From NCBI GenBank assembly GCA_036802765.1, contig DAIRVP010000001.1, positions 2,153 to 66,152 of the forward strand: a stretch of DNA of 64,000 nt. The letters run 5' to 3'. The translations under genes and the position numbers were made by a program. The notes beneath the pieces are model-generated. The model made no database searches and was not told the DNA's origin. It was given only the letters and a program-made list of their open reading frames with translations. This stretch comes from Candidatus Rokuibacteriota bacterium (lineage in GTDB: Bacteria > Methylomirabilota > Methylomirabilia > Rokubacteriales > CSP1-6). Positions 8,860 to 26,288 of this stretch are shown one piece after another. The stretch's first letter is position 1. Every line of letters starts with the position of its first letter.

Positions 8860-9363
8860 ATGGCGATCAAGGTCGGCGATCGGCTGCCCGAGGGCACCCT
8901 GACGGAGATGATCGACACGGAGCGTGAGGGCTGCACGCTCGGTCCCAATGCTTTCAATGTGAGCGACCTGGTCAAAGGCAAGAAGGTCGCGGTCTTCGCG
9001 GTGCCCGGCGCCTTCACGCCGACGTGCTCGGCCAAGCACGTGCCGAGCTACGTGCAAAACTTCGACAAGCTGCGCGCCAAGGGCGTGGACGAGATCTGGT
9101 GCATCGCGGTCAACGACGCGTTCGTCATGGGCGCCTGGGGGCGGGATCAGAAGGCCGGCGGCAAGGTCCGGATGCTGGCCGACGGCAGCGCGACCTACAC
9201 GAAGCAGCTCGGCCTCGACCTGGATCTCGTGGGCCGCGGCATGGGGGTGCGCTCGCAGCGCTATTCGATGCTGGTTGACGATGGCGTCGTCAAGGCGCTG
9301 CACGTCGAGGCCCCGGGCAAGTTCGAGGTCAGCGACGCTGAGACCATGCTGAAAGACCTGTGA
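8860..9363 (+). CDS. Peroxiredoxin, Prx5 type (Redoxin family)
   Basis: FTPTCS peroxidatic-Cys motif. RBS AGGAGGA upstream. Confidence 0.85.
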   Translation: MAIKVGDRLPEGTLTEMIDTEREGCTLGPNAFNVSDLVKGKKVAVFAVPGAFTPTCSAKHVPSYVQNFDKLRAKGVDEIWCIAVNDAFVMGAWGRDQKAGGKVRMLADGSATYTKQLGLDLDLVGRGMGVRSQRYSMLVDDGVVKALHVEAPGKFEVSDAETMLKDL

Positions 9364-9836
9364 TGGCCATCGTCGAGGGCAAGAAGGCGCCTGATTTCAC
9401 GCTCGCGGACGCGGCGGGCAAGAAGGTCTCGCTCGCCGACTTCAAAGGTAAGGACGTCGTCGTCTACTTCTATCCGAAGGACGACACGCCGGGCTGCACC
9501 AAGGAGGCCTGCGGGTTCCGCGATCTGAACAAAGAACTCCAGAATTCCGGCGTCATGGTGCTCGGTGTCTCGGCCGACTCGGGGGAATCACATACGAAGT
9601 TCGCGCAGAAATATCGGCTGCCCTTCACGCTGCTGTCGGATCCCGACCGGAAGGTCATGACCGCATGGGGGGCCTACGGCGACAAGATGATGTACGGCAA
9701 GAAGACGAAGGGCGTCATCCGCTCGACGGTGTGGATCGGCCCCGACGGCGTCGTTCGCAAGCACTGGAAGAAGGTGGCGGATGCCGCCAAGCATCCCGAG
9801 CAGGTGTGGGCCGCGGTCCGTGGAGATGGCGTATGA
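9363..9836 (+). CDS. bcp: Thioredoxin-dependent peroxiredoxin Bcp
   Basis: YFYPKDDTPGCTKEAC motif. The start overlaps the Prx5 stop. Confidence 0.85.
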   Translation: MAIVEGKKAPDFTLADAAGKKVSLADFKGKDVVVYFYPKDDTPGCTKEACGFRDLNKELQNSGVMVLGVSADSGESHTKFAQKYRLPFTLLSDPDRKVMTAWGAYGDKMMYGKKTKGVIRSTVWIGPDGVVRKHWKKVADAAKHPEQVWAAVRGDGV

Positions 9837-10543
9837 CGGACTACGCTGCGATCGAGCGACGCTTGCGCGCGCAGTTGGGTCTCACGCGCCGCCCGGTCGC
9901 CATCGCGTTCCGCGACACGCCGCCCGCTGGCGTGAAGCAATTCTCGGGCTCCGAGCCGTCGGGCTGCTCGTTCTGGCGGATCGCGATGGAAGGACGGACA
10001 TTTTTCACGGTGCCGGGCGATCACTACAACTGCCCTGTCGGCGCTCACACGCACAACATTCCACTTCCGAGCGAGCGCGCCGGCGAGCTGCCGCAAGTGT
10101 TGCAGATCATGACGGGCCTCGGCTACTTGAAGATGGAAGAAGTGCCCGGCATCCCGCGCCTTCCGAAGACGCCGGGCGCGGTCGTGTATGCGCCGCTCGG
10201 CGACACCCCCATGGATCCCGACGTCGTGCTCTTCATCGGCCCGCCGGGACGGCTGATGCTGCTGCAAGAGGCCGCGCTCCGCGCGGGCGTCACCCCTAAC
10301 GTCCCGTTGCTCGGCCGTCCGACCTGCATGGCGCTGCCCGCGGCGCTGGCCGGCGGCGCCGTCGCGAGCACGGGGTGCATCGGCAACCGGGTCTACACGG
10401 GAGCCGGCGAGGACGAGTTGTACGTCGCCGTGGCCGGGCGTGACATCGCGCGCGTTGCCGACGAGACGGAGACCATCGCGCGGGCCAACGCGGCGCTCGC
10501 CGACTATCATCGTGGCCGCCGCGCGACGTTGGCCACGGAGTAA
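9833..10543 (+). CDS. DUF169-family protein
   Basis: 236 aa. ATGA overlap with the bcp stop. Family assignment is recalled from memory. Confidence 0.6.
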   Translation: MTDYAAIERRLRAQLGLTRRPVAIAFRDTPPAGVKQFSGSEPSGCSFWRIAMEGRTFFTVPGDHYNCPVGAHTHNIPLPSERAGELPQVLQIMTGLGYLKMEEVPGIPRLPKTPGAVVYAPLGDTPMDPDVVLFIGPPGRLMLLQEAALRAGVTPNVPLLGRPTCMALPAALAGGAVASTGCIGNRVYTGAGEDELYVAVAGRDIARVADETETIARANAALADYHRGRRATLATE

Positions 10544-10552
10544 GGGGCGGCC

Positions 10553-10957
10553 ATGAAGCTGAAGAAGGGATTTCGCCAGCTCGTCGACGAGGCGAAGGCG
10601 CGCATCATGACGATCAGCCTGGACGACGCCAAGCGGCGTCACGGCCGCGACGACGTCGTGTTCGTGGATCTGCGCGACATCCGTGAGCTCGAGCGCGAAG
10701 GCATGATCCCCGGCGCGTTTCACTGCCCTCGCGGCATGCTCGAGTTCTGGATCGATCCCGACAGTCCCTACCACAAGGACGTGTTCGCGTCGGGCAAGGA
10801 GTTCGTCTTCTACTGCAACGGCGCCTGGCGGTCCGCGCTCGCGACCGACGTGGCGCAACAGATGGGCCTGCCGCGCGTGGTCGAGATGGACGGCGGCTTC
10901 ACCGCCTGGAAGAACGCCGGTCTGCCCGTCGCACAGCGCGAGAAGAAGAAGGTGTGA
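10553..10957 (+). CDS. Rhodanese-domain sulfurtransferase
   Basis: Active-site loop FYCNGAWRS. Confidence 0.8.
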   Translation: MKLKKGFRQLVDEAKARIMTISLDDAKRRHGRDDVVFVDLRDIRELEREGMIPGAFHCPRGMLEFWIDPDSPYHKDVFASGKEFVFYCNGAWRSALATDVAQQMGLPRVVEMDGGFTAWKNAGLPVAQREKKKV

Positions 10958-16893: not shown

Positions 16894-17993
16894 CTGGCGT
16901 CGAGGCAATCGCGCTCGACATCCCGCTGACGAAGGATTTCGGCGGCAGCACCTACCACGTGCTCAAGCGCAGCACGGTCATCACGCGCATGCGCACGCAC
17001 GACGGTCTGGTGAGCGAGGTGTACAACGGCGACAACCGGAGCCACGGCCGTGAGATCGTCCGCATCATTGCCGACGAGCTCGCGCCGCTCGTCCGCGGGG
17101 GCAGCATCTTCGAGGGTGAGCGCCTCTGGGAGGCGATGTTCGCGCTCAGTCACGCGCAGCGCGACCGCAAGACGCTGCTCGAAGCGATCGCTTGTGTCGA
17201 CTGCGCCATCTGGGATCTCGTCGGCAAAACCGTCGGCAAGAGCGTGCGCGCGCTGCTCGGCGGCTACCGCGCCGAGCTGCCGATCATCTCCATCGGCGGG
17301 TACTACATGGAGGGCAAGACTCTCGCAGACATCGGGCGCGAAATGGAAACCTACCGGGTCGCCGGCATGGCCGGCTGCAAGTTCAAAGTGGGCGGGCTCA
17401 CGCCCGAAGAGGACGCTCGGCGCGTGGAAGCGGCGCGCCGCGCGGCCGGCGCCGATTTCGTGCTGGCCGTCGACGCCAATCGCGGCTGGAGCGCGGCGGA
17501 CGCGATTCGGTTCGCCCATCTCGTCGAGTTACACGACATCCGCTGGTTCGAGGAGCCCTGCCACTGGTACGACGACGTCGCGATGATGGCGCGGGTGCGG
17601 CAGGCGAGCCGGATTCCCGTCACCGCCGGCCAGAGCGAGATCACGAGCCACGCGATTCGCCGCTTGATCGAGGCGCGCGCGGTCGACTTCGTGAACTACG
17701 ATGCGTCGGAAGGCGGCGGCGTCACGGACTGGCGCCGCGCGGCCGGACTCTGCCACGCGGCTGGCGTGCAGATGGCGCATCACGAGGAGCCGCAGATCGC
17801 GCAGCACCTGCTCGCCGGCGTGCCACACGGCACCTACGTCGAATGCTTTGCCGATCCGGCTCGCGATCCGATGTGGCAAGCCGTGTGGGCCAACCGCCCG
17901 CCCATCAAGAACGGCATCATGACTGTCTCCAACGAGCCCGGTTTCGGCATCGTGCTGGACGAGGCGCTGGTGAAACGGTATCGGGTCGCCTAG
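16878..17993 (+). CDS. Enolase-superfamily enzyme (mandelate racemase / muconate lactonizing / dipeptide epimerase-like)
   Basis: KFKVGG...DANRGW...FEEP motifs. ATG at 16878 overlaps the SBP5 3' end. Confidence 0.8.
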   Translation: MAGQITGVEAIALDIPLTKDFGGSTYHVLKRSTVITRMRTHDGLVSEVYNGDNRSHGREIVRIIADELAPLVRGGSIFEGERLWEAMFALSHAQRDRKTLLEAIACVDCAIWDLVGKTVGKSVRALLGGYRAELPIISIGGYYMEGKTLADIGREMETYRVAGMAGCKFKVGGLTPEEDARRVEAARRAAGADFVLAVDANRGWSAADAIRFAHLVELHDIRWFEEPCHWYDDVAMMARVRQASRIPVTAGQSEITSHAIRRLIEARAVDFVNYDASEGGGVTDWRRAAGLCHAAGVQMAHHEEPQIAQHLLAGVPHGTYVECFADPARDPMWQAVWANRPPIKNGIMTVSNEPGFGIVLDEALVKRYRVA

Positions 17994-18016
17994 ATTCGCC
18001 GCACTGGAGACCGCAC

Positions 18017-18724
18017 ATGGCTGACCTCGCAACGCTCGATCGGACGTACGACTTCATCATGCGGCGAATCATCGCGGACGGACGCGCGCCGCATTACACC
18101 GAGATCGCCTCGGAATTTCGCGTTGCACCCGACGTCGGACTCGGGCTGCTGCGTGATCTCATGGCCGTCGGCCTGCCGAACTGGCTTCATCCTCACACCG
18201 ACCTGATCGCGTCGTTCCCGCCGTTCAACAATCTGCCGACGCAGTACCGCCTCGGCGTCGGCGGCGAGTGGAAGTGGTTCGCGCAGTGCGGCCTCGAAGC
18301 GCTCGCCGCCTGCTGGGCGTTCCCTGGACGCGGCGTGGACATCGAAGCGCCGTGCCTCGACTGCGGCAAGTCCATCGAGGTCACCGTGCGCGATGGCCGG
18401 ATCGAGCGCGCGGTGCCGGCCACGATCCGCTTCTACGTCTCGGTGCCGGTGCGCGACTGGCGCGCGAACATCACCTATACCTGAAGCCACATGAACCTCT
18501 TCCGGTCGGAAGAGGATGCGCGTCGGTGGTCGGACTTCGTGCCTGGCAGCGACGCGGGCATTGTCACGCTCGAACAAGCGATGGCGATCATGAGCACCCC
18601 ACGCCACCGCAACCGATTCGACGGCCGCTACGTTTCGTCGTCGCCGAGCTACGGCGCGGCGTTCTTCGCGAAGCTGCGCGAGGTGACCGGCGGCAGCCCT
18701 TACTGGGAGCCGCCGGCCACCTGA
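18017..18724 (+). CDS. Alkylmercury-lyase (MerB) family protein interrupted by an in-frame TGA at 18482-18484 (candidate Sec codon or nonsense/pseudogene)
   Basis: ORFs 18017..18484 and 18491..18724 are in the same frame. Conserved MerB C-terminal motifs (FxxSVPxxDW; GIVTLEQAMA) lie on both sides of the TGA. Confidence 0.5.
18496..18515 (+). other. SECIS-like hairpin (8-bp perfect stem cctcttcc/ggaagagg, loop GGUC) starting 12 nt after the UGA
   Basis: Seen directly in the sequence. Confidence 0.45.
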
Positions 18725-18736
18725 TCGATCGCCGCG

Positions 18737-19354
18737 CTACTGCAGCGGCGAGAACGAGGACGGCAGGCAGATCTTCGTCTCCTGCGTGATCAGCCGATCG
18801 GCGCCGCCCGGCGGCGGCCACACGCCCTTCTTGCGGGCCTCGTCACGGATCTGCATGCGCTGATCCAGGCTCTGGTATGCCCAGATGTGCACGAAGCCGT
18901 TGGCGCGCCCGAACTCCACGCCGCCCGCAAACACCACCGGCGAGAGCTTGATGCGATCCGGCAGCTTCTCGCTCCAGCCCTTCGCGGTGGCCGGGAGCGA
19001 CCCTCCCTTGAGGGTGTAGTAGCGGATCTCGAAGATCGGGCCCATCCGGCCGGGCTGCGGCGTGGGCACGAAATCGAACGGCGAGATGATCTCCGAGCTC
19101 ATCGTACGGATGAACTCCTGGATCTTCGGCGGCCAGTTCGGGTCCTTGGAGGCCTCGGCGCGGATGCTCGCGCGCTCCGCGAGGTCCTTGTACCCCCAGA
19201 TGTGGATGATCTCGTTGAGCGGCCCGATCTCCGTGTGCAGGAAAGCCGTGAGCGGGGAGTACTTCTTGCGGTGCTCGTACGCCTCGCCGTACCGCTTCTC
19301 GACCTCAGCCAGGCTACCGGGCACGATACCGTAGGTGCGGATCTCGTAGATCAT
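18737..19354 (-). CDS. NIPSNAP-family protein (tandem NIPSNAP domains)
   Basis: MIYEIRTY...IWGYKDLAERASIRA, repeated twice. Confidence 0.75.
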   Translation of the reverse strand: MIYEIRTYGIVPGSLAEVEKRYGEAYEHRKKYSPLTAFLHTEIGPLNEIIHIWGYKDLAERASIRAEASKDPNWPPKIQEFIRTMSSEIISPFDFVPTPQPGRMGPIFEIRYYTLKGGSLPATAKGWSEKLPDRIKLSPVVFAGGVEFGRANGFVHIWAYQSLDQRMQIRDEARKKGVWPPPGGADRLITQETKICLPSSFSPLQ

Positions 19355-24602: not shown

Positions 24603-26288
24603 ATGACAAGCGCAGAGCCCATGTACGACGTTGTCTGGCCGCTCGCCCCGTCCGCCGCACCGCCGGGATCACTCGCGGCGCGTTCCCAGGATCTTCGCGG
24701 CAAAACCGTCGGTGAGCTATGGGATTACCTGTTCAAGGGCGAGGAGATCTTTCCCCTCATCCGAACGGCGCTCGAGGCCCGCTATCCCGGTATCCGCTTC
24801 GTCGAGTTCGAGACCTTCGGCTCGACGCACGGCCGCGACGAGAAAGAGCTCGCAGCGACGCTGCCCGGACTGCTGCGCCAGCACGGCTGCGACGCGGTGA
24901 TCTCCGCCGTCGGCGCCTGAGGATCGTGCACGCCCGCCGTGTTGCGGGCCGCCGCGATCGCCGAGCGCGCCGGAGTGCCGAGCGTCTCTATCGTCACGAC
25001 ACCGTTCATGCAGCAGGCCGCGGTCGTGTCCAAGGGCGTCGGCCTGCCGTCGCTGCCGATCGCTGAGTACCCCGGCGTGCCGATGACCGACGGCTCGGAC
25101 GCCGTCGCACGAAAGATCGACGCGCTGTTGCCACAGATCGTGGCGGGCCTCGCCGGCGCCCGCGACGTCGTGCGCACCGCAGTCGCCGAGCCGGGGCCGC
25201 GCGACATCGTGGCGCGTGGCACGCTCGACGAGGTCCAGGAGCTCTATCACCGCAATCTTTGGAGCGACGGGCTGCCGGTGATTCCCCCGACGATCGACCG
25301 CGTCGAGCGCTTTCTCGCTCAAACGCGGCGCGCACCAGACGAAGTGATCGGACGGCTGCTGCCCGAGAACCGTGCGGCCACCGTCTGGAGCATCGCGGTC
25401 AACGGCGTCATGGCAGGCTGCCGGCCCGAATACATGCCGGTCCTCGTTGCTATCGTGGAAGCCATCGCGGAGCCGATCTTCCGCGTCGAGGACGCCGGCT
25501 CGACGCCGGGCTGGGAGCCGCTCGTGATCGTGAGCGGCCCCATCGCCAGGCGTCTCGACCTCAATCACGGTCAGGGCGTGATGCGTGTGGGGCGCCAGGC
25601 CAACACGAGTCTCGGTCGCTTCTTGCGGCTCTACCTTCGCAACGTCGCGGGGCTGCGAATTCCGCCCGGCGCGGGCGACAAGGGCGGCATCGCGGCCTCG
25701 TTCAACGTGGCGCTGGCCGAAGACGAAGACGCCGCTGCCGCGCTGGGATGGCCGACGTTCGGCGCGGACCAAGGCTTCACGCGCGACGACAGCGTGGTCA
25801 CCGTGCAGAGCGTGGTGAGCATCAGCCCGCCGATCTACTCCGCCGGCACGCGCGCGCTCGAGCATGCGCGCATCCTCGCCGAGGTGTTCGGCGGCGCGTG
25901 CAGCTACTGGTCGTCGATCGGCATGAAGTACGCGCGCTGGGAGCCGCTGCTCGTGCTGGGCCCGTCGATCGCGCGTGTGATCGCCGACGACGGCTGGTCG
26001 AAGGACGATCTGCGCCGTTACCTCCACGAGCACGTGACGATCACCGCACGCCAGGCCGAGACGTATGCGCTGCAGGTCGGCGCAACGTCGTTCACGCTCG
26101 ACGCCCACGTCAAGGCCGGCGTGCTGCCCGCCTCCTACGCGACGTCCAGCGATCCGGAACGCGCGGTGCCGGTGTTCGTGCAGCCGGAGAAGATCGGGAT
26201 TCTCGTCGCCGGCGATCCCGGCCGCAATCAGTCCAAAGGCTACGTCAACAACCACATTCAGGGTGGCCGCATCAGCAAGAGGGTTTGA
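24603..26288 (+). CDS. Candidate selenoprotein with a U-G-S-C motif (in-frame TGA 24918-24920) and a long C-terminal domain of unknown function
   Basis: ORFs 24603..24920 and 24939..26288 share one frame. GC3 bias is continuous through the whole 561 codons. Context reads ...HGCDAVISAVGA-U-GSCTPAVLRAAAIAERAGVPS... Confidence 0.55.
24932..24949 (+). other. SECIS-like hairpin (gcccgc / CGUGUU / gcgggc) starting 12 nt after the UGA
   Basis: Seen directly. GU in the apical loop. Confidence 0.45.

What the first reader, a model, noticed from the sequence alone, without database searches (positions are those of the whole stretch)
18017..18724. MerB-like (alkylmercury lyase family) gene split by one in-frame UGA, with a strong hairpin 12 nt downstream
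ORFs 18017..18484 and 18491..18724 share a frame. Together they reconstruct a MerB-like protein whose conserved C-terminal elements (FxxSVPxxDW, then GIVTLEQAMA) straddle the TGA at 18482-18484. A perfect 8-bp stem cctcttcc/ggaagagg with a GGUC loop (18496..18515) starts 12 nt after the UGA. That is the same offset as the hairpin after the UGSC UGA. The region around the UGA looks like an inserted segment or partial internal duplication relative to canonical MerB (RFYVSVPVRDWRAN vs NLFRSEEDARRW). So this is either a Sec-containing variant or a decayed gene.
Basis: partly seen in the sequence, partly recalled or inferred. Interest (0 to 1): 0.7.

Follow-up and report, generated by a model that had tools for sequence, protein, structure and literature searches.

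The report
Selenocysteine-containing MerB-like lyase gene
The apparent stop codon inside this mercury-lyase-like gene almost certainly encodes selenocysteine at a catalytic position, so this is one intact gene from a widespread family that databases routinely cut into pieces.

Summary
ORFs 18017..18484 and 18491..18724 share a frame and are separated by TGA 18482-84. A perfect 8-bp hairpin with a GGUC loop lies at 18496-18515.

This is an intact selenoprotein gene of 235 codons, not a decayed one. The TGA aligns with catalytic Cys159 of MerB. Cys91 matches MerB Cys96 and Glu94 matches Asp99.

In 82 loci examined (80 species genomes, one metagenome contig, the window), 81 carry TGA at this site, each followed by a 75-95-codon open frame where the contig allows. 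The hairpin sits at a fixed position in all 81. Three of its base pairs show compensatory changes. It is destroyed in the single Cys/Cys locus.

In 63 of 82 loci the first catalytic Cys is also TGA, with its own GGUC(U)-loop hairpin. The window copy is a single-Sec form, probably derived.

The exact 155-aa product occurs on at least 23 contigs from several JGI and ENA assemblies. A UGSC selenoprotein gene lies 6.4 kb downstream.

The partial-duplication idea is not supported.

MerB-family selenoproteins are already known (SaoL). This clade fails the SaoL tests and is absent from the 2026 catalogue I read. Function as an organometal lyase is inferred, not shown.

The parts
18006..18009 (+). Likely ribosome-binding site GGAG, 7 nt upstream of the ATG
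   Evidence: Read directly from the sequence. This is inference only.
18017..18724 (+). Complete coding sequence of the MerB-like selenoprotein. It has 235 codons plus the true stop TGA at 18722-24, with UGA codon 156 read as selenocysteine.
   Evidence: Translation. The Pfam MerB domain spans residues 72-191. tblastn matches to residues 1-232 in 80 genomes cross the TGA. C-terminal tails are 75-95 codons in 81 loci; the one shorter tail (L052, 41 codons) is cut by the contig end.
18287..18289 (+). TGC, Cys91, equivalent to catalytic Cys96 of MerB. This position is TGA (Sec) in 63 of 82 family loci.
   Evidence: Alignment to PDB MerB chains. Codon census of the 82 loci.
18296..18298 (+). GAA, Glu94, at the position of the MerB proton donor Asp99. 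It is invariant in the close family.
18353..18364 (+). Invariant C113-L-D-C116 (CxxC) motif. Cys113 aligns with MerB Cys117.
   Evidence: Invariant columns in alignments A1 and A4. A CxxC is also present in most of the distant Cys/Cys homologs. Its role is unknown.
18482..18484 (+). In-frame TGA, predicted Sec156, equivalent to catalytic Cys159 of MerB
   Evidence: PDB alignments. TGA in 81 of 82 loci and TGC in one. Cys in distant homologs. The identical product occurs on at least 23 contigs from several assemblies.
18496..18515 (+). SECIS-type hairpin inside the coding sequence: 8-bp stem CCUCUUCC/GGAAGAGG with apical loop GGUC. It lies 11 nt after the UGA, with 19 nt from the UGA to the loop. 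Folding energy is -12.4 kcal/mol.
   Evidence: Conservation and compensatory changes in 81 loci. All four criteria of the bacterial SECIS consensus model are met.
18722..18724 (+). True stop codon (TGA) of the gene
   Evidence: Homologs end at the same relative position. The convergent NIPSNAP gene starts 13 nt further on.

Best explanation
Window 18017-18724 is one intact gene for a 235-residue selenoprotein of the MerB (organomercurial lyase) fold.

**Decoding (inferred from sequence features).** UGA codon 156 is read as selenocysteine. The hairpin 11 nt downstream, with a GGUC apical loop, acts as a bacterial SECIS element. It recruits SelB carrying Sec-tRNA(Sec) to the ribosome while the UGA is in the A site. 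The Sec machinery itself was not seen in the window.

**Active site.** The predicted site is Cys91 / Glu94 / Sec156. These are the positions of the MerB catalytic triad Cys96 / Asp99 / Cys159. The alignment is shown; the geometry rests on the fold only.

**Function (inferred).** The enzyme most likely cleaves a carbon-metal bond by MerB-type protonolysis. The substrate is most plausibly an organomercurial, possibly another organometal. A thiolate and a selenolate would hold the metal, and the carboxylate would protonate the leaving carbon.

**Family.** The gene belongs to a widespread stand-alone family. Most members have Sec at both metal-binding positions, and the window copy is a single-Sec form.
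For: **Domain and active-site alignment**
- The MerB domain runs across the TGA.
- The TGA aligns with Cys159 of MerB and with the equivalent Cys of MerB2. Cys91 aligns with Cys96 and Glu94 with Asp99.

**Conservation of the TGA and the downstream frame**
- 351 loci in species-representative genomes encode relatives.
- All 82 loci examined were classified as TGA/TGA 63, TGC/TGA 18 and TGC/TGC 1, always 65 codons apart.
- An open frame of 75-95 codons follows the TGA in 81 of the 82 loci. The tail of the remaining locus is cut by the contig end. Mean identity to the window is 41% in this tail, against 54% in the N-terminal part.

**Hairpin**
- It sits at a fixed position in all 81 Sec loci.
- Pair 21-28 is CG in 66 rows and UA in 11. 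Pair 22-27 is CG 72, GC 4, AU 1. Pair 16-33 is CG 59, UA 4, UG 2. The six inner pairs have one mismatch among 462 cells. None of 500 shuffles reaches the observed covariation score.
- Some compensating changes cost an amino-acid change (E to K; R to V, A or G), which argues for selection on the RNA.
- Third-codon positions inside the hairpin are mostly 86-99% conserved (one is 78%). Those in the flanking codons are mostly 32-67%. Host GC ranges from 41 to 71%.
- The only Cys/Cys locus (L077) has lost the hairpin.
- The hairpin meets all four criteria of the published bacterial SECIS model (PMC13188914).

**Other support**
- The second site has its own hairpin with a GGUCU loop, 98.9% paired, with GC/CG covariation of 45 to 14.
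- The exact window product occurs on at least 23 contigs from JGI and ENA assemblies.
- TGA is an ordinary stop for 10 of 23 neighbouring genes.
- A UGSC-family selenoprotein gene with its own in-frame TGA and hairpin lies at 24621-26288.
- An AlphaFold model of the Cys/Cys homolog has pLDDT 92.6. It matches only MerB and MerB2 structures, with E 1e-10 to 1e-7.
- Distant full-length homologs carry Cys at both sites.
Against: - There is no experimental evidence of selenium incorporation.
- No selA, selB, selD or tRNA-Sec is in the 64-kb window. Sec use by this organism is inferred from the UGSC gene. It is also supported by a published report of selenoprotein-rich Methylomirabilota MAGs, cited in PMC13188914.
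- On the window sequence alone the hairpin is not statistically striking (z = -1.9).
- Part of the nucleotide conservation in the hairpin reflects the conserved peptide LFRSEE.
- The function is uncertain. The gene is not in a mer operon and has no conserved neighbours.
- It scores far below the NCBIfam MerB equivalog cutoffs.
- A Hg(II) product bound to a selenolate might be released very slowly.
- The structure model is of a 46%-identical homolog, and I could not measure distances in it.
Confidence: 0.9

Rival explanations
1. Decayed gene. A nonsense mutation truncated a MerB-like gene, and the downstream frame is a remnant.
For: Gene callers and NCBI annotate a 155-aa 'organomercurial lyase' or 'hypothetical protein'.
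Against: - The same TGA is present in 81 of 82 loci, from many phyla and at 45-60% protein identity.
- The downstream frame is kept open for 75-95 codons with conserved sequence.
- The hairpin covaries.
- A pseudogene would not keep any of these features.
Confidence: 0.01
2. Sequencing or assembly error at 18482-84. The true codon would be TGC or TGT.
For: None beyond the general possibility.
Against: - The exact 155-aa product, ending at the same TGA, is on at least 23 contigs from several JGI and ENA assemblies.
- Dozens of 55-97% identical homologs are also exactly 155 aa.
Confidence: 0.01
3. Split gene. A 155-aa N-terminal protein and a separate 77-aa protein, started at ATG 18491, would assemble into a two-chain MerB-like enzyme lacking the Cys159-equivalent residue.
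For: - An ATG lies two codons after the TGA.
- 74-78-aa C-terminal pieces are called as separate proteins in databases.
Against: - In the SRIHLF subgroup this codon is Ile (ATT/ATC), so no start codon is available there.
- No Shine-Dalgarno sequence precedes it.
- The stop sits exactly on a catalytic Cys position, and distant homologs have Cys there in a single chain.
- The hairpin would occlude codons 2-8 of such an ORF.
Confidence: 0.02
4. UGA is decoded as another amino acid, without selenium. This could be Trp or Gly through reassignment (genetic code 4 or 25), or Cys or Trp through near-cognate read-through.
For: Some database entries translate these TGAs as W because the gene caller chose code 4.
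Against: - TGA terminates 10 of 23 neighbouring genes and this gene itself.
- The hosts are Methylomirabilota, Proteobacteria and Thermodesulfobacteriota, which use the standard code.
- The position is Cys, not Trp or Gly, in TGA-free homologs.
- A SECIS-type hairpin accompanies each TGA and is lost when the codon is TGC.
Confidence: 0.04
5. The hairpin is a terminator or attenuator that ends expression after a deliberately truncated 155-aa protein.
For: It is a strong GC-containing stem close to a stop codon.
Against: - No U-tract follows, and the terminator scan finds nothing in 17900-18900.
- The hairpin lies within conserved coding sequence.
- Its loop and spacing fit the SECIS model.
Confidence: 0.01

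Closest known systems
SaoL, the MerB-like organometallic lyase selenoprotein (NCBIfam NF040728; Haft & Gwadz 2023, bioRxiv 10.1101/2022.07.06.499078)
   Same: - It has the MerB fold.
- Sec replaces the residue equivalent to MerB Cys159.
- Databases routinely truncate it at the UGA.
- It is a cytosolic putative organometal lyase that is not part of a mer resistance operon.
   Different: - The window protein scores 34.6 bits against a SaoL cutoff of 140, and a double-Sec member scores 40.8.
- The motif is T-U-S rather than C-U.
- The carboxylate is Glu rather than Asp.
- There is no nine-gene SAO neighbourhood and no conserved neighbourhood at all.
- Hosts include Methylomirabilota, Alpha- and Betaproteobacteria and Nitrospinae-type lineages, not only the anaerobes to which SaoL is confined.
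- Most members of this family also have Sec at the Cys96-equivalent site. SaoL is listed with a single Sec.
MerB, organomercurial lyase of plasmid R831b (PDB 1S6L, 3F0O, 3F0P; EC 4.99.1.2), and MerB2 of Bacillus (PDB 5C17)
   Same: - The Pfam MerB domain and the fold match.
- The two metal-binding positions and the carboxylate position are conserved in register.
- MerB2 is the best PDB sequence match, at E = 3.8e-11.
   Different: - Sec replaces Cys159, and Glu replaces Asp99.
- An extra invariant CxxC motif is present.
- There is a C-terminal extension of about 40 residues.
- The protein is below the NCBIfam MerB equivalog cutoffs: 35.2 against 193 and 28.6 against 200.
- No merA, merR, merT or merP lies nearby.
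Bacterial SECIS element (E. coli fdhF type; consensus model of Zhang & Gladyshev as summarised in PMC13188914)
   Same: - A stem-loop lies within the coding sequence immediately after the UGA.
- The small apical loop begins with GG followed by U.
- There are 19 nt from the UGA to the loop, within the model range of 16-37.
- From my own recollection, not checked here, the E. coli fdhF loop is also GGUC and its minimal element must lie 11 nt after the UGA, as here.
   Different: - The stem is perfect, with no bulged U.
- Binding to SelB has not been tested.
'Organic mercuric lyase MerB2' selenoprotein family counted in 17 bacterial genomes (Peng et al. 2016, ISME J, Table S3)
   Same: It is a MerB-family selenoprotein predicted by comparative genomics.
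   Different: Only a name and a count are given. I cannot tell whether those 17 genes are SaoL, this clade or both. Later reviews equate the entry with SaoL.

Membership tests
Bacterial selenoprotein gene (Sec-UGA plus SECIS) | In-frame UGA with conserved coding sequence on both sides | tested here: met
   The downstream frame is open for 75-95 codons in 81 of 82 loci; the last is cut by the contig end.
Bacterial selenoprotein gene (Sec-UGA plus SECIS) | The UGA aligns with Cys in homologs (Sec/Cys pair) | tested here: met
   It aligns with Cys159 of MerB and the Cys of MerB2, with the L077 Cys/Cys form, and with distant Cys/Cys homologs.
Bacterial selenoprotein gene (Sec-UGA plus SECIS) | Downstream stem-loop fitting the bacterial SECIS model: 4-16 bp stem, 3-9 nt loop, G in the first two loop positions, 16-37 nt from the UGA to the loop, and folding energy of -7.5 kcal/mol or lower | tested here: met
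   The stem is 8 bp, the loop is GGUC, the distance is 19 nt and the energy is -12.4 kcal/mol. Compensatory changes occur in three pairs.
Bacterial selenoprotein gene (Sec-UGA plus SECIS) | selA, selB, selC and selD in the same genome | not testable with these tools
   None are in the window. Indirect support comes from a UGSC-family selenoprotein gene at 24621-26288.
Bacterial selenoprotein gene (Sec-UGA plus SECIS) | Selenium shown in the protein (75Se labelling or mass spectrometry) | not testable with these tools
   This needs an experiment.
MerB organomercurial lyase (PF03243; EC 4.99.1.2) | Pfam MerB domain above the gathering score | tested here: met
   72.2 bits against 27, over residues 72-191.
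MerB organomercurial lyase (PF03243; EC 4.99.1.2) | MerB three-dimensional fold | tested here: met
   The model of the 46%-identical Cys/Cys homolog P0030 has pLDDT 92.6. Only MerB and MerB2 chains match, at E 1e-10 to 1e-7 and TM 0.57-0.68. The window protein itself was not modelled.
MerB organomercurial lyase (PF03243; EC 4.99.1.2) | Catalytic triad Cys96 / Asp99 / Cys159 | tested here: inconclusive
   All three positions are occupied in register, but as Cys91 / Glu94 / Sec156. The chemistry is plausibly equivalent but the residues are not identical.
MerB organomercurial lyase (PF03243; EC 4.99.1.2) | Reaches the NCBIfam equivalog cutoffs for MerB (NF009710, NF033555) | tested here: not met
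   35.2 against 193 and 28.6 against 200.
MerB organomercurial lyase (PF03243; EC 4.99.1.2) | mer operon context (merA, merR, merT, merP) | tested here: not met
   The window neighbours are an MR_MLE enzyme, a solute-binding protein and a NIPSNAP protein. No neighbour is conserved across the 82 loci.
MerB organomercurial lyase (PF03243; EC 4.99.1.2) | Cleaves carbon-mercury bonds | not testable with these tools
   This needs an enzyme assay.
SaoL (NF040728) | HMM score at or above 140 bits | tested here: not met
   34.6 bits for the window protein and 40.8 for a double-Sec member.
SaoL (NF040728) | Cys-Sec (CU) dipeptide at the active site | tested here: not met
   The motif is T-U-S in the window and [ATS]-U-[SG] across the family.
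SaoL (NF040728) | Located in the nine-gene SAO neighbourhood | tested here: not met
SaoL (NF040728) | Sec at the position of MerB Cys159 | tested here: met
   The SaoL assignment comes from the paper read.

The most novel reading that the evidence does not exclude
The window gene may represent an uncatalogued, widespread MerB-like selenoprotein family. At least 351 species-level genomes carry it, and it is nearly always mis-annotated as fragments. Its ancestral and commonest form has selenocysteine at both metal-binding positions of the MerB active site, each with its own SECIS hairpin. If so, this would be a bis-selenolate organometal lyase that acts alone, outside mer and SAO operons. It would be a concrete candidate for the unidentified mer-independent methylmercury-demethylating activity of sulfate-reducing and syntrophic bacteria. 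The window copy would be a derived single-Sec version found in Methylomirabilota, Proteobacteria and related lineages.
Probability: 0.3. Interest if true: 0.7.

Novelty: new member of a known kind. Interest (0 to 1): 0.5.

Why it matters
**Annotation.** The gene is intact but is split or truncated in every database entry seen. Products of 155 aa, 90 aa and 77 aa appear, as do translations with Trp at the Sec codons. A family model spanning both Sec sites would correct hundreds of genomes.

**Biology.** It adds a second, much more widespread clade to the MerB-type selenoproteins, beside SaoL. The family shows all three active-site states: Sec/Sec, Cys/Sec and Cys/Cys. Each Sec codon is accompanied by a SECIS hairpin, and the hairpin is absent from most Cys-codon loci. 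This makes it a clean natural system for studying Sec-to-Cys exchange.

**Environment.** A selenolate-bearing carbon-metal lyase in Methylomirabilota, sulfate reducers and syntrophs is a testable candidate for organomercury turnover at trace concentrations.

Tried and rejected
**Checks that ruled ideas out**
- Internal duplication: the repeat finder on 18380-18600 found only 8-10-nt chance repeats. Alignments place the upstream segment as a normal conserved part of the family.
- Terminator or promoter: none found in 17900-18900.
- Conserved gene neighbourhood: all-against-all BLAST of ORFs within 4.5 kb in 82 loci found nothing shared by more than 8 loci. The best cluster is a histidine kinase and response regulator. 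There were no mer or SAO genes.

**Searches that found nothing**
- tRNA-Sec or other RNA families: ARAGORN and Rfam found nothing in the window.
- A crude scan of the window for other in-frame TGAs with downstream hairpins gave only two convincing cases, this gene and the UGSC gene, among many GC-driven false positives.

**Steps that were blocked or uninformative**
A natural Cys/Cys homolog was modelled instead.
- dN/dS on the C-terminal tail was uninformative because synonymous sites are near saturation at these distances.

**Literature**
- The GOS 2008 paper, cited by reviews for a MerB-like selenoprotein, contains no MerB, alkylmercury or organomercurial term and no lyase entry in its text or the supplements held.
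- Peng 2016 gives only a name and a count.
- Haft & Tolstoy 2025 was not available.

Full report
**1. The observation**

ORF 18017..18484 encodes 155 aa and ends in TGA at 18482-84. Two codons later (AGC CAC) an ATG opens ORF 18491..18724 in the same frame. Reading through gives 235 codons.

Pfam's MerB model (PF03243) matches residues 72-191 at 72.2 bits, against a gathering score of 27. One MerB domain therefore runs across the TGA.

The inverted repeat CCTCTTCC / GGAAGAGG with a GGTC loop lies at 18496-18515, 11 nt after the TGA. No U-tract follows, and no terminator-like or promoter-like site is found in 17900-18900.

On this one sequence the hairpin is not statistically remarkable. The 49-nt fold has z = -1.9, and 12 of 200 shuffles fold as well, because the DNA is 68% GC.

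**2. What the TGA aligns with**

phmmer against PDB sequences aligns the stop position with Cys159 of MerB (1S6L, 3F0O and others). It also aligns with the equivalent Cys of MerB2 (5C17, the best hit at E = 3.8e-11). Cys91 aligns with MerB Cys96, and Glu94 with Asp99. These three are the MerB catalytic residues; this is established knowledge, restated for SaoL in the paper read.

The MerB motif FFASVPTAEDW aligns with the downstream NLFRSEEDARRW. The upstream RFYVSVPVRDW is a separate segment that is conserved throughout this family. No DNA repeat supports a duplication.

**3. Homologs**

A search of the 5.8-billion-protein collection returned dozens of homologs at 55-97% identity. Nearly all are exactly 155 aa long, so they are cut at the same codon. 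Their sources name them Methylomirabilota, Rokubacteria, Proteobacteria and Sulfotelmatobacter.

The "full-length" hits of 232-239 aa carry Trp at both catalytic positions. On the one contig I could read (L001), both of these "Trp" codons are TGA. The gene caller had used genetic code 4.

A pattern scan of one genome per species (185,579 species) found 351 loci encoding relatives, and the best 80 were fetched. All 82 loci examined were classified: these 80, L001 and the window.

| Site 1 (MerB Cys96) / site 2 (MerB Cys159) | Loci |
|---|---|
| TGA / TGA | 63 |
| TGC / TGA | 18 (including the window) |
| TGC / TGC | 1 (L077) |

The two sites are always 65 codons apart. After the second TGA the frame stays open for 75-95 codons in 81 loci; the remaining locus (L052) is cut by the contig end. 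Mean identity to the window is 41% in this tail, against 54% for the N-terminal part.

A profile search of 1.84 billion cluster representatives gives the pattern expected of a family cut at two Sec codons:
- many products ending at profile position 90;
- products ending at position 155;
- products of 74-78 aa starting at position 159;
- few full-length proteins.

The full-length ones are more distant and carry Cys at both sites.

**4. The hairpins**

In all 81 loci with TGA at site 2, the hairpin CUCUUCC-GGUC-GGAAGAG lies at the same position. Counting pairs on the ungapped alignment gives:

| Pair (alignment columns) | Base pairs observed |
|---|---|
| 21-28 | CG 66, UA 11 |
| 22-27 | CG 72, GC 4, AU 1 |
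| 16-33 | CG 59, UA 4, UG 2, unpaired 12 |

The six inner pairs have one mismatch among 462 cells. None of 500 shuffles reaches the observed covariation score or number of doubly changed cells. Sliding the partner by 1-3 columns drops pairing from 86% to 39-63%.

Several compensating changes pair a synonymous change with an amino-acid change:
- TTC to TTT with GAA to AAA (Glu to Lys);
- CGG to GTG, GCG or GGG (Arg to Val, Ala or Gly) with TCG to TCC.

This is hard to explain without selection on the RNA.

Third-codon positions inside the stem-loop are mostly 86-99% conserved (one is 78%). Those in flanking codons are mostly 32-67%. The host loci range from 41 to 71% GC.

The single Cys/Cys locus reads CTCTTTCGATCGCGGGAA and forms no hairpin.

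Site 1 in the 63 double-TGA loci has its own hairpin, GCUGGC-GGUCU-GCUGGC. It starts 11 nt after the UGA and is 98.9% paired, with GC/CG covariation of 45 to 14 at its base. Most loci with TGC at site 1, including the window, lack it. Two loci (L013, L043) still have it, which suggests a recent Sec-to-Cys change.

The window hairpin meets every criterion of the published bacterial SECIS consensus (PMC13188914):
- stem of 4-16 bp: here 8;
- loop of 3-9 nt: here 4;
- G in the first two loop positions, usually followed by G or U: here GGUC;
- 16-37 nt from the UGA to the loop: here 19;
- folding energy of -7.5 kcal/mol or lower: here -12.4.

**5. Not an error, not a reassigned codon**

The exact 155-aa product is on at least 23 contigs from several JGI and ENA assemblies, with the same neighbours.

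TGA is the ordinary stop of 10 of 23 neighbouring genes and of this gene itself at 18722-24.

A separate downstream gene is unlikely. The ATG after the TGA is Ile in the SRIHLF subgroup, and no ribosome-binding site precedes it.

**6. Does this organism use selenocysteine?**

No tRNA or Rfam family is found in the window, and no sel gene was seen.

However, 6.4 kb downstream (24621-26288) lies a gene with an in-frame TGA at 24918-20 in the motif A-U-G-S-C. It matches the UGSC selenoprotein family (NF041046, E = 1.5e-15; Pfam UGSC on both halves). Its hairpin sits at the same offset.

A 2026 review also reports a Methylomirabilota MAG predicted to carry 63 selenoprotein genes.

Sec use by the host is therefore well supported but indirect.

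**7. Fold and likely function**

AlphaFold2 on the natural Cys/Cys homolog P0030 (46% identical to the window protein) gave mean pLDDT 92.6. Foldseek against the PDB returned only MerB and MerB2 chains as significant matches, at E 1e-10 to 1e-7 and TM 0.57-0.68. The tool would not accept the window protein with U replaced by C.

The gene is not in a mer operon. Its window neighbours are an enolase-superfamily enzyme, a solute-binding protein and a convergent NIPSNAP gene. No neighbour is conserved across the 82 loci.

The inferred mechanism is MerB-type protonolysis of a carbon-metal bond. Cys91 thiolate and Sec156 selenolate would hold the metal, and Glu94 would donate the proton. This step is inference. 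An invariant CxxC (C113, C116) of unknown role might accept the metal product.

**8. Comparison with what is known**

MerB-family selenoproteins are already known. SaoL (NF040728) has Sec at the MerB Cys159 position in a C-U motif. It lies in the nine-gene SAO locus of anaerobes.

Peng et al. 2016 counted an "Organic mercuric lyase MerB2" selenoprotein in 17 genomes, without details.

The window protein fails the SaoL tests:
- 34.6 bits against a cutoff of 140;
- T-U-S rather than C-U;
- no SAO neighbours.

It also falls below the MerB equivalog cutoffs.

The 2026 catalogue of 119 prokaryotic selenoprotein families lists SaoL as the only MerB-like entry, with one Sec. NCBIfam release 20 has no model for this clade.

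I therefore file the window gene as a new member of a known kind. The double-Sec majority of its family appears undescribed in the literature I could reach. That literature is incomplete: Haft & Tolstoy 2025 and Deng et al. 2026 were not readable.

**9. Evolution (inference)**

A neighbour-joining tree places the Cys/Sec forms in two groups nested among Sec/Sec forms, and the Cys/Cys locus inside a Sec/Sec clade. Together with the retained site-1 hairpins in L013 and L043, this suggests that Sec/Sec is ancestral and that Sec was replaced by Cys more than once. The tree is approximate.

**10. Verdict**

| Question | Verdict |
|---|---|
| Observation | Confirmed |
| "Sec-containing variant" | Supported; confidence about 0.9 that UGA156 encodes Sec through the adjacent SECIS hairpin |
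| "Decayed gene" | Rejected |
| "Duplication or insertion" | Rejected |
| Function as an organometal lyase | Plausible but untested |

Interest is moderate. This is a solid, correctable annotation error and a new clade of a recently recognised kind of selenoenzyme. The more novel double-Sec form is seen only outside the window.

Noticed in passing
window 24621-26288 (TGA at 24918-24920): A second selenoprotein gene. A UGSC-family domain (motif A-U-G-S-C) is fused to a C-terminal region of about 450 residues. Gene callers split it into 99-aa and 426/449-aa products. A 6-bp hairpin GCCCGC/GCGGGC starts 11 nt after the TGA, the same offset as in the MerB-like gene.
   Followed up: partly
L001 1938-1940 and 2133-2135; proteins P0026-P0029, P0033, P0042, P0063, P0084: Database proteins of this family that look full-length have Trp at both catalytic positions. 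On the one contig I could read (L001), both codons are TGA translated with genetic code 4. Such entries would mislead any alignment-based inference about the active site.
   Followed up: yes
L013 4798-4845 and L043 4916-4963: Two loci (Nitrospinae and Tectomicrobia MAGs) have TGC at site 1 but still carry the complete site-1 hairpin GCUGGC-GGUCU-GCUGGC. This looks like a SECIS element left over after a recent Sec-to-Cys change.
   Followed up: partly
L077 6271-6273 and 6466-6513: This is the only Cys/Cys member among the 82 loci (a deltaproteobacterial MAG, protein P0030). It has lost both hairpins. The site-2 region reads CTCTTTCGATCGCGGGAA.
   Followed up: yes
window 18353-18364: An invariant C-L-D-C motif lies 22 residues after the first catalytic Cys. 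The CxxC is kept in most of the distant Cys/Cys homologs too, but is absent from canonical MerB, which has only Cys117 there. It could be a metal hand-off or structural site.
   Followed up: no
window 18730-18750: A hairpin CGCCGC-(9 nt)-GCGGCG starts 5 nt after the gene's true stop (TGA 18722-24). It overlaps the end of the convergent NIPSNAP gene (18737-19354, minus strand). It may be a shared transcript-end structure, but it has no U-tract.
   Followed up: no
window 8860-10957: Upstream lies a cluster of redox-type genes: two adjacent AhpC/TSA-redoxin genes with overlapping stop and start, a DUF169 gene and a rhodanese gene. Some of these families have known selenoprotein members. I saw no in-frame TGA in them but did not examine them closely.
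   Followed up: no
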